Shown here one piece after another: positions 16,401-17,465 of a stretch of DNA of 32,000 bases. The stretch spans positions 1 to 32,000 of the forward strand of contig DAOVER010000020.1 of the NCBI GenBank assembly GCA_030668875.1, in the 5' to 3' direction. The position numbers were made by a program, and so were the translations under genes. This DNA is from Candidatus Heimdallarchaeota archaeon (GTDB lineage: Archaea; Asgardarchaeota; Heimdallarchaeia; Heimdallarchaeales; Heimdallarchaeaceae). A model generated the notes under the pieces. It ran no database searches, was not told the DNA's origin, and was given only the letters and a program-made list of their open reading frames with translations. Numbering within the stretch: position 1 is the first letter of the stretch; each line of letters starts with the position of its first letter.

Positions 16401-17465
16401 AAAGCGATTGCTAAAGTTAGTTTACCGGGTTTGGATCTATTCTCTGATAAGAAGAAGAAAACTCAAGTAGAACCTTTGATTATTGAAGCCACACTTCAAA
16501 CTGCAGGGCTATATGATTATATCATACACCAGAGCATCTCACTTCCTTCCACAGTTGAGAAACTGGAGTTCTTCAGCAAGAATGAACCTGTTTATGTTGT
16601 TTCCGAGTTTATCTCTAAAGATGATACACATAGCTACTATAATCTTGAAGCAATCGACAAAGACGGAAAAATTATTCTTCGACTAGACAAATTAGGGTTG
16701 ATTCATACACAATTCCCAACAGATGTTTCTGATGAAGTCCTTCAAAAGATAGCTGTAATAAAAGAATACTGGGAGCTGTCTTCTTTGTTCAAAGATACAG
16801 AGGTGAAAATTGTCCCTATCAAGAATGTAGTAGAAAAATACGATCAAACTCCAGAAAAACTAATCCGAGACATGAAAAGTCAAGAAAAGACTGCTTTTCA
16901 GAAAATAAAAAATAACAAACGAAAAATGGCGTATTTGTCTGGATTAATAGCTGCTAAGGAATTATACTCAAAAATTGACAATAATCCGGAAATTTTTGGT
17001 AAAATCGAAATTAGAAAAACAGCTAAAGGGCAGCCATATATCTATAATCTGAAAGATAAGAAGAAATCAGAATTATACCTATCGATCTCTCATTCTGAGA
17101 ATTATGCTTTAGCAGCAATAGGTTCCAAACCTTTAGGAGTAGATATTGAGAAAATAGAAGATCGGAATGAATCTTTCTACAAAGAAGCTTTTACTGAACG
17201 TGAAAGAAGCACCATCTCTAACGATAAAGAATTGGGAACTGTTTATTGGACTATAAAAGAATCTGTTTCGAAAGCTCTTGGTGAGGGACTAAACATTAGT
17301 CTTCATGATATAGAAATAACAGACACTCAAAAAGATAACAGCTATGAGGTCAAATTATCTGACAGGGTTGAGACAATATTCTCCAAAGACCCAAGTTCGT
17401 TCCAGATTAACAATCAAAAATCAAGAAATTACTCAATAAGCTTCTGCGAAATAAGAAGAAAGTGA
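7407..17465 (+). CDS. Iterative type I PKS/fatty-acid-synthase-like megasynthase, ER*-ER-KS-AT-KS-ACP-ACP-KR-DH-PPTase (3352 aa)
   Basis: A GGTGA SD at 7398-7402 places the start at ATG 7407 rather than 7377. Domain motifs are listed in the sub-features. The KS1 segment (TEDSMPGELSNVIAGRIAN) and the KR helical insertion resemble PfaA. Confidence 0.93.
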   Translation: MKTIEQIKKELKVRYPILGYSPRGIEDPSLSIALSSNGGIGLIDLEGLTETKTKKIIFKCLKEIPTDKQWGVRVSNEEQLKWLLDFDSIPIIIISSSFENYSRIDEKPKCNWKIAEVNNLTEAHEKASQVDFFLVKGIEAGGKVGEKSSFILIQEFYDSGYPFLIQGGLGYYNLVGAFIGGAIGVVLEGQLYLLPECPLDDQTKNYLASLDENDTYLVGEELDFKYRLAGKIANQSIRNLKNLSKQSEKAVDILQTVENLAKESLFFADESVKNTLLPLGVDVCFAKFIKSKFTNLASFLEGISVLMREQLDSISKEWPFAENSDFARSIGVQYPIIQGPMANITDYPSFGKEVLAKGALPVFALGGLLKDEAEAMFQEIQKTFDSKDVYGGGIIGLEVIKERREDHIALLQEYNSPICLLAAGSVQLAKRIQSLGFKTLFHAPALALFKDAVDNDIEYLILEGNECGGHIGNQTSFILWESILQYLDSIRDKVTNKINVIFAGGIADEVASAMLSGMIGSHLSVISPGIQMGTGYLFTEEIVETQALTQFYQEKLLNSTQTKVIGSTVNSRARAVPTMFVQTTLEHEQERLRQGLPIRERKELYEKDNLGALRIAAKGEMWNNDHVPDGDTTQFVPISSDVQLESGVFMTGEIIGRKRNVYRIEDLHFDVIQNGESFLENQIRKIETLIATSTGTDEKLVDKIKLSTKNKIAIIGLGCVFPDALNIEQYWKNILNKKYSITEVSKDRWDSKLYFDSDKNIEGKTYSKIGAFVKDYKFDSIKYRIPPKMADQMDDVQKWSLEATRQALEDAGLPTDGKTRTNMVIIIGNSLGGEIQRYTNRRVFFPEIEEVIKNNDIFQKLTVSEQKEFIQNLTESYSHRYPAVTEDSMPGELSNVIAGRIANVFNLTGKSMTTDAACASSIAALDTAIASLNSKDYDIALVGGADRSMDVSTYVKFCKIGALSGVGSRPFDEKADGFVMGEGAGFIVIKRLEDAIRDENRIYATVSSIGSSSDGKGKGITAPNPEGPKQAISMALKKANINVDDVQYIEAHGTSTIVGDAIELEVLDDVFKDRNRDKKLAVGSVKSQIGHLKSAAGIASIIKTSLSLYNKLLPPSANVETLNPKINWEQSSVYVNTEANEWKVSRNEVRRAGVSAFGFGGTNYHAIMEEYDKDKITFLSEAPVGKIVLTPTSLLDTQVGRKEKEQQICFMYTGQGSQYIGMMEALSKHSNIIAETLETAEKVWEHYYSISFKEILFGSPNLTKEANSQRLTNTKFTQPALFIVEIALTRYLEQKGIKPDFVAGHSLGEYSALVTAGVLSFKDGFKAVIARGKAMCSASSKTEGSMAAVLATRHKVKDIVNRVKDHYVTIANINSLSQTVISGDNKGVDEAIELAKEEGITAKKLRVSTAFHSKIVASVEKELRKVLANLTYNKPQIPVFSNVSGNKYPSDPAKVQQLLLDQICSSVQWVDEIKEIYKAGGRVFVEVGPKRALHSFAKDILKDRNDIQVFTTLTPKDDEIDKIGKTIESIEKTSQTAIEETTHVSEKTDKPADAYQSPTITKPLGIEQLSKDQTLHDYLKMGYDLYSRYSGKGSTEEAKRVAPIQESFTSKIKIGVTGVGIGMPGKSRNVFDDANIDAVLLGENFIDSVADEIKQEMLNKNIIRLIKSADGNASFVSIDDKSQVINLAGQIGEFNPVEDFGLKPKLVNALDKSFQLAICAGLEALKDAGIPLVKSEFTTTTGKVLEGEWVLPEQLQNETGVIFASAFPGYDYLVKEITEHLATNSKKSFSREFLFRVLSMGHSQFAQLIKAKGPNTQINAACASTTQAIGIAEDWIRTGRCNRVIVIAGDVASSENLLPWIGAGFLVAGGVTTKDKVEEAAIPFGKNRHGLIIGSAAAGLVLENEQTYTERGVKPIVDLIGTSFSNSAFHGSKIDVKHINRVFESFIKDIESQHKITRKELASEGMFVSHETYTPARGGSAESEVESLRHIFGTNVADLVIMNTKGFTGHSMGAGIEECIAIKSMEKGIIPPIANLNEIDPNFKDLNFSKGMKRRAKYAIRLAAGFGSQIAFTAFKLNTYEDRYDIDSYESWLAELGGNIEGFFYDGRVLKLRTSKKLKKQRELKPVVKLAKAPTEVSEILRDIIQVIAEKTGYEPQLIEADMHLEEDLGVDTVKQAEIFGTVRDNWDLGFDDTVNLADFSTPNSIAEYIGRNTSKVVQAVEEVTKSAIVQVENLQSKVIAIVASTTGYEPDTIESDMDLEEDLGIDTIKQAEIFGELRDVLDLPIDDTVNLAELRTISDICDYLASQTSGVEKETINIEHQTETKPVEKKKRKDAVNVEKLITAPVPLNKQEAEKIDMLPRSNLLIDLSSKTAQTIVKAFEKQGVNYKLFKLLAQEPNELENKNYDSIIIILPGSKSEPGYIDQEIYEKLFLLFQGLELNSNQILMAISSENYFGFDKDSCPLSGGVSGFIKTLGHEFNMKIKHVYSEKISEILQEMEYWDDYLEISFQNNMRFTLVSADVDENDVQMSSISVSDKDIILATGGGRGITFKCLEELCSRSKPKVAIIGIEDISNYTVDMLDYTEEQLKEKRQKMIENLKEKEEKVTPVMIERNWNRFLFDLDVLRNIKQLESQGIEAIYSKVDVTDKKAVKQAISKIEEQLQSKVTHIIHGAGLEESKQFKKKKFGLSKLIVSVKVEGIWNILNAIDEKKLKRLICFTSIAGRYGNMGQIDYSFANGYLSRLCWKLNQEGISSLACDWSAWGNVGMATRGSIMDILESQGIYPIPLDKGTTLFGDLFFSGTQPEVVVSCGLGPFEQLKRTSSKIEMNTLPMIQNLSYEESVFKGEKIISTLTDLYMNDHQIQNVPFFPGVMGIEMFAEMYKLTTSKTADVFKDIEFKSPVKLPNIDSKTVFVKYDVVSKTLQLNSVFISKADSSRTRENEHFFTRIETNAKKIRSRKTKHIITDSRIELLSKSDIYSVFFHGPSFQVLEKLVELSDEKAIAKVSLPGLDLFSDKKKKTQVEPLIIEATLQTAGLYDYIIHQSISLPSTVEKLEFFSKNEPVYVVSEFISKDDTHSYYNLEAIDKDGKIILRLDKLGLIHTQFPTDVSDEVLQKIAVIKEYWELSSLFKDTEVKIVPIKNVVEKYDQTPEKLIRDMKSQEKTAFQKIKNNKRKMAYLSGLIAAKELYSKIDNNPEIFGKIEIRKTAKGQPYIYNLKDKKKSELYLSISHSENYALAAIGSKPLGVDIEKIEDRNESFYKEAFTERERSTISNDKELGTVYWTIKESVSKALGEGLNISLHDIEITDTQKDNSYEVKLSDRVETIFSKDPSSFQINNQKSRNYSISFCEIRRK
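7440..8350 (+). other. Megasynthase domain 1: degenerate FabK/nitronate-monooxygenase-like TIM barrel (pseudo-ER)
   Basis: YPILG...KGIEAGGKVG...QGGLG...GVVLEGQLYL parallels domain 2, but has Lys (7833-7835) at the catalytic His position. Confidence 0.7.
8395..9440 (+). other. Megasynthase domain 2: FMN-dependent FabK/PfaD-like enoyl reductase
   Basis: Motifs YPIIQGPM, EGNECGGH (His at 8814-8816), FAGGI and QMGTGYL. Confidence 0.85.
9531..10919 (+). other. Megasynthase KS1 (PfaA-like ketosynthase)
   Basis: Motifs IAIIGLGC.FP, DAACASS (Cys 10158), EAHGTST (His 10560), GHLKSAAG (His 10677) and FGFGGTNYH. Confidence 0.95.
11028..11990 (+). other. Megasynthase acyltransferase with a malonyl-type signature
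   Basis: Motifs GQGSQY, TKFTQPALF, GHSLG (Ser 11322), VSTAFHS and EVGP. Confidence 0.93.
12243..13637 (+). other. Megasynthase KS2, a divergent ketosynthase with an intact triad
   Basis: Motifs NAACAST (Cys 12870), SHETYTP (His 13314), TKGFTGHSMG (His 13434) and AAGFGSQ. Confidence 0.85.
13821..14336 (+). repeat. Two tandem ACP domains (about 13821-14048 and 14106-14336), both with Thr at the attachment site
   Basis: TGYEP..IE.DM.LEEDLG(V/I)DT(V/I)KQAEIFG..RD..DL..DDTVNLA(D/E)..T...I.(E/D)Y is repeated twice. The Thr codons are ACA (13923) and ACC (14208). Confidence 0.9.
15021..15850 (+). other. Megasynthase ketoreductase catalytic subdomain; a structural subdomain probably lies at about 14400-15000
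   Basis: Motifs TGGGRGIT, HGAG and FTSIAGRYGNMGQIDYSFAN (Tyr 15603). Confidence 0.9.
15900..16710 (+). other. Megasynthase double-hotdog (PKS-type) dehydratase
   Basis: DHQIQNVPFFPG (His 15984, HxxxxxxxxP), FHGPSFQ, and IIEATLQ (Glu 16485 at the acid position). Confidence 0.8.
16800..17465 (+). other. Megasynthase C-terminal Sfp-type 4'-phosphopantetheinyl transferase
   Basis: Motifs KGQP, SISHS, GVDIE (17136) and WTIKESVSKALG (17247). Confidence 0.9.

What the first reader, a model, noticed from the sequence alone, without database searches (positions are those of the whole stretch)
16800..17465. Sfp-type PPTase fused to the C-terminus: a self-activating megasynthase
Seen: the last ~220 aa carry SISHS, GVDIE and WTIKESVSKALG in frame with the DH, with no stop between them. 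Established: integrated PPTases are known in enediyne PksE (KS-AT-ACP-KR-DH-PPTase, Sfp-like) and fungal FAS (AcpS-like). Archaea generally lack both ACP and PPTase. Inference: the fusion makes the system independent of host machinery, which would ease horizontal transfer into an archaeon, and would allow co-evolution with the Thr-ACPs.
Basis: partly seen in the sequence, partly recalled or inferred. Interest (0 to 1): 0.6.

Follow-up and report, generated by a model that had tools for sequence, protein, structure and literature searches.

The report
Built-in activating enzyme on archaeal megasynthase
The last ~220 residues of a 3,362-residue fatty-acid/polyketide synthase in a Heimdall-group Asgard archaeon are an intact Sfp-type phosphopantetheinyl transferase, the only one found in the genome, but the same enzyme is fused to or sits right behind this synthase family in many bacteria too, so it is a family trait and not an archaeal adaptation.

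Summary
Observation confirmed. ORF 7377-17465 (+) reads without stop or frameshift from the dehydratase into a complete Sfp-type PPTase (aa ~3141-3362; Pfam ACPS E 6e-20; AF2 pLDDT 93.7; best folds AASDHPPT, Sfp and PptT). All catalytic residues are kept. It is the only PPTase found in this 92%-complete genome. The only usable carrier domains found are the synthase's own two ACPs, and both carry Thr at the attachment site. Self-priming is therefore the best reading.

The 'eases transfer into an archaeon' idea is not supported as the reason for the fusion. In bacterial relatives the PPTase is fused (Lujinxingia, Bradymonadales, Syntrophales, Riflebacteria) or is a separate gene starting within a few to ~100 nt of the synthase stop. 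In several the two reading frames differ by a single in-frame stop codon (Chloroflexota, Elusimicrobiota, Acidobacteriota; the published 'Type R' layout). The five bacterial genomes I checked have further PPTases. Nearly every carrier site found by a motif scan of the family is Thr, in fused and split forms alike. Fused and split forms interchanged at least three times on the tree. All 15 Asgard sequences sampled form one fused clade.

The scan has already reported this fused PPTase in other Asgard genomes. Verdict: a new member of a known kind. Its main value is as the probable Thr-directed partner of Thr-type carriers.

The parts
7377..17465 (+). Megasynthase ORF, 3362 aa: ER(NMO-type), KS, AT, KS2, ACP x2, KR, DH, PPTase
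   Evidence: Pfam domain table
13923..13925 (+). Thr2183, attachment-site position of ACP1 (DLGVDT)
14208..14210 (+). Thr2278, attachment-site position of ACP2 (DLGIDT)
15945..16694 (+). Dehydratase (PKS_DH_N and PS-DH, aa 2857-3106) that precedes the PPTase in frame
16731..16781 (+). Helical DH-to-PPTase connector (aa 3119-3135), modelled with high confidence and not as a disordered tether
   Evidence: blocks around model residues 880-896 have pLDDT 83-91
16797..17123 (+). PPTase N-terminal lobe (aa ~3141-3249), with KGQP (P1a-type motif) and SISHS including His3239 (= Sfp H90)
   Evidence: (second weak PF01648 match at 16815-17117)
17130..17462 (+). PPTase C-terminal catalytic lobe (aa 3252-3362): Asp3256 and Glu3258 (GVDIE), Glu3276, Trp3291, Lys3294, Glu3295, Lys3299
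17471..18226 (+). Alpha/beta hydrolase starting 5 nt after the megasynthase stop; context only
5819..7396 (+). Carboxyltransferase whose end overlaps the megasynthase start by 20 nt; context only

Best explanation
The C-terminal ~220 residues are a functional Sfp-type (group II) 4'-phosphopantetheinyl transferase built into the synthase. It most likely binds CoA and Mg2+ through His3239, Asp3256, Glu3258, Glu3295 and Lys3299. It would then transfer phosphopantetheine once to the two carrier domains of the same enzyme (Thr2183 and Thr2278), within one chain or between chains of an oligomer. The megasynthase would thus prime itself. The PPTase is the family's own dedicated partner. Across bacteria and archaea it is fused to the DH or encoded immediately downstream, and the two states interconvert, in several cases by gain or loss of one stop codon. 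In this archaeon it also happens to be the only PPTase found. Shown here: domain identity, fold, conserved active site, true fusion, sole copy in the genome, and family-wide linkage. Inferred: catalytic activity, Thr as acceptor, and cis versus trans action.
For: Pfam ACPS E 5.9e-20. Sfp is the best sequence match in the PDB, and Sfp H90, D107, E109, E151 and K155 align to identical residues. These residues are invariant in 8 aligned family members at 29-81% identity to the window. They are also invariant in 41 family and 20 unrelated PPTases. AF2 pLDDT is 93.7 and pTM 0.91. Foldseek gives full-length matches to AASDHPPT 2cg5, Sfp 4mrt and PptT, while AcpS covers only half of the model. It is the only PF01648 locus in the 92%-complete genome. 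The only other PP-binding-like ORF has Lys at the attachment site. The fusion is kept in 19 full-length homologues and in every un-truncated match of its own genus and family. There are no indels in independent assemblies. Fused and adjacent PPTases occur throughout the family.
Against: There is no biochemical evidence. Phosphopantetheinylation of Thr is unproven, and I found no paper reporting it. No RNA data were available.
Confidence: 0.8

Rival explanations
1. The domain is a catalytically dead structural relic that only stabilises the DH/KR tail. The carriers are primed by something else or not at all.
For: The connector to the DH is a confidently modelled helix, and the ACP2-KR-DH-PPTase model has pTM 0.74. 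This suggests rigid integration.
Against: Every catalytic and CoA/Mg-binding residue is invariant from 29% to 86% identity and in free PPTases. No other PPTase was found in the genome.
Confidence: 0.05
2. The PPTase is made or released as a separate polypeptide, by an internal start or by proteolysis. It would then behave like the split forms despite the continuous frame.
For: In split relatives the PPTase ORF starts at the equivalent position, sometimes after a single in-frame stop.
Against: The window's Met3166 aligns to a position that is Leu in 80% of family members, so there is no conserved internal start there. The connector is modelled as structured. There is no direct evidence either way.
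Confidence: 0.07
3. The fusion arose or was kept specifically so that the system could work in archaea that lack AcpS and Sfp.
For: It is the sole PPTase in this genome. All 15 sampled Asgard sequences are fused and form one clade with 97/92 support.
Against: The identical fused layout occurs in Syntrophales, Riflebacteria and Lujinxingia. The five bacterial hosts checked have other PPTases. Split forms keep the PPTase adjacent. Portability therefore comes from linkage, which predates or is independent of archaeal residence.
Confidence: 0.1
4. The apparent fusion is an assembly or frameshift artefact.
For: None found.
Against: There are no indels in contigs from four runs. The same fused frame is found in dozens of genomes.
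Confidence: 0.01

Closest known systems
Sfp of Bacillus subtilis (PDB 1qr0, 4mrt) and human AASDHPPT (2cg5): group II PPTases
   Same: Two-lobed fold of about 230 aa. The same His/Asp/Glu/Glu/Lys active-site set. Best sequence and fold matches.
   Different: About 20% identity. This one is fused to a synthase. Its presumed acceptors carry Thr, not Ser. Position 3261 is Glu in 80% of family members where Sfp has Lys112.
'Type R' secondary lipid synthase clusters (Shulse & Allen 2011, PMC3098273)
   Same: KS-AT-KS2/CLF-ACPn-KR core with a dedicated PPTase. The PPTase shows the P1a-type x(G/D)xP motif (KGQP) and the P1b'-type hShxH motif (LSISH). Split relatives from Chloroflexota, Elusimicrobiota and Acidobacteriota fall in the same DH+PPTase tree.
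   Different: The paper describes the PPTase as a separate downstream gene and lists no DH or ER. Here ER, DH and PPTase are all in one chain, with 2 ACPs instead of 3-6.
Enediyne PksE (KS-AT-ACP-KR-DH-PPTase; from my own knowledge, SgcE/CalE8)
   Same: C-terminal KR-DH-PPTase order with an integrated Sfp-type PPTase and self-priming.
   Different: PksE is about 1900 aa, with no ER, no second KS and a single ACP. No enediyne cassette is seen in this window. The Streptomyces ORF used as outgroup was not confirmed as PksE.
Pfa synthases with an integrated PPTase (Pseudoalteromonas DS-12 pfaC in PMC3098273; Aquimarina, Flavobacterium and Renibacterium pfaBC-PPTase in bioRxiv 10.1101/2025.10.24.682833)
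   Same: A PPTase domain built into a PUFA-synthase-like subunit.
   Different: There it is fused to PfaC/PfaBC of a multi-subunit synthase. Here it ends a single-chain synthase.
Fungal FAS alpha-subunit PPT domain (PDB 2was, 4v58)
   Same: A C-terminal PPTase on a megasynthase that activates its own ACP.
   Different: That domain is AcpS-like, with one lobe. It gives only weak half-length matches here (E 0.07-0.5).

Membership tests
Sfp-type (group II) PPTase | PF01648 match above the curated cut-off | tested here: met
   71.8 bits against a cut-off of 25; 81.3 bits for the excised tail
Sfp-type (group II) PPTase | Two pseudo-symmetric lobes in one chain of about 230 aa (AcpS has one lobe and forms a trimer) | tested here: met
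   Two PF01648 stretches. The AF2 model matches AASDHPPT, Sfp and PptT over its full length (TMq 0.66-0.75), while AcpS gives TMq of about 0.4.
Sfp-type (group II) PPTase | Residues equivalent to Sfp H90, D107, E109, E151 and K155 | tested here: met
   H3239, D3256, E3258, E3295 and K3299. They are invariant in the family.
Sfp-type (group II) PPTase | Transfers phosphopantetheine from CoA to a carrier protein | not testable with these tools
   Needs an enzyme assay
Type R secondary lipid synthase cluster (Shulse & Allen 2011) | pfaA homologue with KS-MAT-CLF-ACP(3-6)-KR | tested here: inconclusive
   The KS-AT-KS2-ACP-KR order is met, but there are 2 ACPs plus extra ER and DH domains
Type R secondary lipid synthase cluster (Shulse & Allen 2011) | PPTase encoded by a separate downstream gene | tested here: not met
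   It is fused here. Relatives with the separate gene are homologous and interleave with fused forms on the tree.
Type R secondary lipid synthase cluster (Shulse & Allen 2011) | PPTase motifs P1a x(G/D)xP and P1b' hShxH | tested here: met
   KGQP and LSISH read directly in the translation, compared with the definitions in the paper
Enediyne PksE | KS-AT-ACP-KR-DH-PPTase in about 1900 aa | tested here: not met
   3362 aa with ER, a second KS and two ACPs
Fungal-FAS-type AcpS-like integrated PPT | Single AcpS-like lobe | tested here: not met
   The fold is two-lobed. AcpS and FAS PPT match only half of it.

The most novel reading that the evidence does not exclude
This PPTase lineage is specialised to attach phosphopantetheine to threonine, which would be an undescribed O-phosphopantetheinyl-threonine linkage. 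That would explain why it is always fused to or adjacent to synthases whose carriers have Thr, even in bacteria that own ordinary AcpS/Sfp enzymes. Generic PPTases would not serve these carriers.
Probability: 0.4. Interest if true: 0.75.

Novelty: new member of a known kind. Interest (0 to 1): 0.4.

Why it matters
Integrated PPTases are already known, so the fusion alone is not new. What matters is the pairing. A whole, widespread and uncharacterised synthase family keeps its own PPTase physically linked, and nearly all its carrier sites found here have Thr at the attachment position. In this Asgard archaeon the pair is the only carrier/PPTase system found in the genome. The excised domain plus its ACPs is therefore a small, clean system for testing whether phosphopantetheine can be attached to threonine. 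It is also a prerequisite for expressing this archaeal fatty-acid-type synthase in a heterologous host and finding its product.

Tried and rejected
A search of 80 genomes of the class with it found only giant or contig-cut frames, and its own genome was not in the sample.

No RNA holder was listed for the stretch, so nothing can be said about expression.

Literature searches for Asgard or Heimdall with PPTase, PUFA synthase or ACP found no description of this domain, and none for Thr in place of Ser on carriers. Chen et al. 2020 (PMC7472256) only note a PUFA-like KS/PKS in a Heimdallarchaeota MAG.

I considered a charge-swap contact between Glu3261 (the Sfp K112 position) and the conserved Lys two residues after the carrier Thr. 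I dropped it because, from memory, PCPs served by Sfp also have Lys there, and I had no coordinates to test contacts.

The second AF2 model (ACP2 to the end) returns no coordinates, so docking of the ACP on the PPTase could not be examined.

The Streptomyces ORF L055 was not confirmed as PksE. The tree root, and so any claim that fused is the ancestral state, is unproven.

A PPTase-only tree was too poorly resolved at its base, so I replaced it with the DH+PPTase tree.
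Full report
OBSERVATION. The window holds one 3362-aa ORF at 7377-17465 (+). Pfam reads it as NMO-type ER, KS, AT, a second KS, two PP-binding domains, KR, PS-DH, and PF01648 (ACPS) at aa 3252-3356 with E 5.9e-20. A weaker AASDHPPT_N match lies at aa 3167-3247. The excised tail scores 81 bits. Contigs from four DNA runs of one marine-sediment study show substitutions from a co-occurring strain but no insertion or deletion between 15500 and 18300. Two of those runs may be the source of this DNA. The fusion is not a frameshift artefact.

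WHAT THE DOMAIN IS. The best sequence match among solved structures is Sfp (E 2.5e-8). Sfp H90, D107, E109, E151 and K155 align to H3239, D3256, E3258, E3295 and K3299. An AlphaFold2 model of aa 3132-3362, built on 116 sequences, has mean pLDDT 93.7 and pTM 0.91. Foldseek matches it over its full length to human AASDHPPT, Sfp and mycobacterial PptT. AcpS enzymes cover only half of it. It is not an AcpS-like domain of the fungal-FAS kind. The catalytic core (G3218, P3220, H3239, G3254, D3256, E3258, E3276, W3291, K3294, E3295, K3299, G3304) is conserved in at least 88% of rows, and mostly in all rows, of both 41 family PPTases and 20 unrelated free PPTases. A model of ACP2-KR-DH-PPTase (aa 2240-3362; pLDDT 86.5, pTM 0.74) has its only long disordered stretch right after ACP2. 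The DH-to-PPTase connector is a confidently modelled helix (aa 3119-3135). The PPTase thus looks rigidly built in and not loosely tethered.

GENOME CONTEXT. The organism is a Heimdallarchaeaceae-type Asgard archaeon, judged from the source names of its closest homologues. In its 3.23-Mb, 92%-complete assembly the only PF01648 locus is this one. PP-binding matches are the two ACPs of the synthase plus one 83-aa ORF on another contig. That ORF has Lys at the attachment position and sits beside a luciferase-like monooxygenase. Both synthase ACPs have Thr at the site, in DLGVDT and DLGIDT. The flanking genes are birA, a carboxyltransferase, an alpha/beta hydrolase, and accB and accC. The PPTase therefore has no partner to serve other than its own chain, and the chain has no other activator. 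This is the basis for 'self-priming', which remains an inference.

DISTRIBUTION. Nineteen full-length homologues (3234-3626 aa, 29-84% identity in the tail) come from sources named Heimdallarchaeaceae, Hodarchaeota and Promethearchaeota. Eighteen of the nineteen carry PF01648 in the precomputed annotation, and P0015, which lacks it, appears cut within the tail. The GxDxE and WxxKE motifs are present in nearly all nineteen, and each fails my strict pattern in one protein. In a sample of 250 Asgard genomes, 89 have a PF01648 match. In the window's own genus 15 of 18 do, always within a giant frame or one cut by a contig end. A second search gave 18 of 21 for the genus and 24 of 27 for the family, with no split form seen. 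Other Asgard families instead have small AcpS-like ORFs of 150-190 aa. One that I examined lies beside an FkbH-like gene. PPTases are thus not rare in this phylum.

An exhaustive profile-free search of 1.84 billion representatives with the tail found 7874 relatives. The 11 hits with E below 1e-30, and the next one at 2e-26, include a 3356-aa full-length synthase (P0024) and a 2353-aa protein (P0031) with the match at their C-termini. Of the nine I scanned with Pfam, four are KR-DH-PPTase pieces and two are DH-PPTase pieces. Three (P0025, P0029, P0032) show only PPTase domains. P0027, at 182 aa, was not scanned. Below that come ordinary free Sfp-type enzymes of 200-260 aa.

FUSED VERSUS SPLIT. 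A scan of GTDB species genomes with a DH-PPTase alignment returned 80 loci. Reading the open frames gives two states.

- Fused. The PPTase ends a giant ORF in Asgard archaea, in a Methanobacteriota MAG (3824 aa) and in bacteria. The bacteria include the cultured Lujinxingia vulgaris TMQ2 (at least 4007 aa in the locus; 4141 aa in its genome), Bradymonadales/Myxococcota MAGs, a Syntrophales MAG (3636 aa), Riflebacteria (3077 aa) and an Enterobacterales MAG (3251 aa). Pfam shows that the Syntrophales, Riflebacteria and Lujinxingia proteins share the window's ER-to-PPTase design, although not every domain passed the E-value threshold in each.
- Split. In Chloroflexota, Elusimicrobiota, Rhodothermales, Thermoanaerobaculia and some Myxococcales the PPTase is a separate open frame of 223-326 aa. 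In 18 of 21 such loci its first start codon lies from 43 nt before to 93 nt after the stop of the synthase ORF (2684-3124 aa where that ORF is complete). The other three have gaps of 191-353 nt. In L012, L013, L014, L016, L021, L047 and L056 the two ORFs are in the same frame, separated by one stop codon and 9-93 nt. This is the layout that Shulse & Allen (2011) catalogued as 'Type R' in the same phyla.

A careful IQ-TREE of DH+PPTase (54 rows, 530 columns) puts all 15 Asgard sequences in one all-fused clade (UFBoot 97, SH-aLRT 92). The fused/split label needs 3 changes in every bootstrap tree, and the split forms fall into two well-supported clades. The root is not secure, so I do not claim which state is ancestral. 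I claim only that fusion and fission recurred and that loss or gain of a stop codon is enough to cause them.

WHY A DEDICATED PPTase? A motif scan of the synthase ORFs found carrier-site matches in 35 family loci, fused or split, bacterial or archaeal. Thr occupies the site in all but two matches: one Ser in L020 and one probably spurious Leu match in L019. Exceptions among the Asgard proteins are P0014 (mixed Ser and Thr) and P0022 (all Ser, with the most divergent PPTase). Five bacterial hosts each have 1-3 additional PPTases, including AcpS-sized ones. The linked PPTase is therefore kept even where housekeeping PPTases exist. That argues against 'independence from the host' as its purpose. 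It fits a specialised pairing with Thr-type carriers. Family-specific residues outside the catalytic core include K3194, E3261 (the position of Sfp K112; R/K in 10 of the 20 unrelated PPTases compared) and F3267. These are leads only.

COMPARISON WITH WHAT IS KNOWN. Integrated PPTases are documented for Pseudoalteromonas DS-12 PfaC (PMC3098273) and for pfaBC homologues of Aquimarina, Flavobacterium and Renibacterium (bioRxiv 10.1101/2025.10.24.682833). From my own knowledge they are also known for enediyne PksE and fungal FAS. A PUFA-like PKS in a Heimdallarchaeota MAG was noted in 2020 without mention of the PPTase (PMC7472256). Earlier follow-ups of this scan reported the same fused, sole-copy PPTase in other Asgard genomes and the Thr-carrier rule in the family. 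My results agree with them. They add the fused/split survey, the single-stop-codon junctions, the tree, the extra PPTases in bacterial hosts and the structured connector.

VERDICT. Self-priming is the best-supported mechanism (confidence about 0.8). As a fused PPTase it is a new member of a known kind. The open and more interesting question is whether this lineage is a Thr-directed PPTase.

Noticed in passing
L005:1480-1731 (-) = G000 contig C29:35634-35828: An 83-aa PP-binding-like ORF has Lys at the attachment-site position (DLGLDK). It lies directly beside a luciferase-like monooxygenase (L005:1733-2665). It is a carrier look-alike that cannot take the cofactor in the usual way.
   Followed up: partly
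L086:3937-4476 (+) (Asgard genome G075, another family): A free 179-aa AcpS-like PPTase lies next to a 621-aa FkbH-like protein and a DUF4185 protein. Similar small PPTase ORFs of 150-190 aa occur in several Asgard families (28 of 59 genomes of family f10). This would be a second, unrelated carrier system in Asgard archaea.
   Followed up: partly
L087:8700-13000 (closed genome G026, same family): There is a tandem partial duplication. The PPTase end of the synthase, a 253-aa ORF and a 163-aa ORF are followed by a second 184-aa PPTase-tail fragment and the same two ORF sizes again. The synthase frame there (2653-2729 aa) is shorter than in the window.
   Followed up: no
L044, L045, L061, L069 (Desulfobacterales): ORFs of about 515 aa appear to be stand-alone DH-PPTase didomains, with the PPTase at residues ~330-480. 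This would be a third arrangement besides fully fused and fully split. The DH part was inferred from the alignment only.
   Followed up: no
window 17157-17159 (Glu3261) and 16956-16958 (Lys3194): These are family-specific PPTase residues. Glu is found in 80% of Thr-ACP-linked PPTases at the position of Sfp Lys112, where 10 of 20 unrelated PPTases have Arg or Lys. Lys3194 is conserved in 93% against 15%.
   Followed up: partly
P0014 and P0022 (Asgard homologues): P0014 mixes Ser and Thr carrier sites (S, T, S) in one chain. P0022 has five all-Ser carriers and the most divergent PPTase tail (29% identity). They are natural material for asking whether the PPTase tracks the acceptor residue.
   Followed up: no
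window 7377-7396: The carboxyltransferase ORF (5819-7396) overlaps the megasynthase start by 20 nt. The hydrolase starts 5 nt after the megasynthase stop. This suggests one tightly coupled operon.
   Followed up: no
window 15500-17060: Contigs from two further samples of the same study carry a second haplotype with clustered substitutions and no indels. A closely related strain co-occurs.
   Followed up: no
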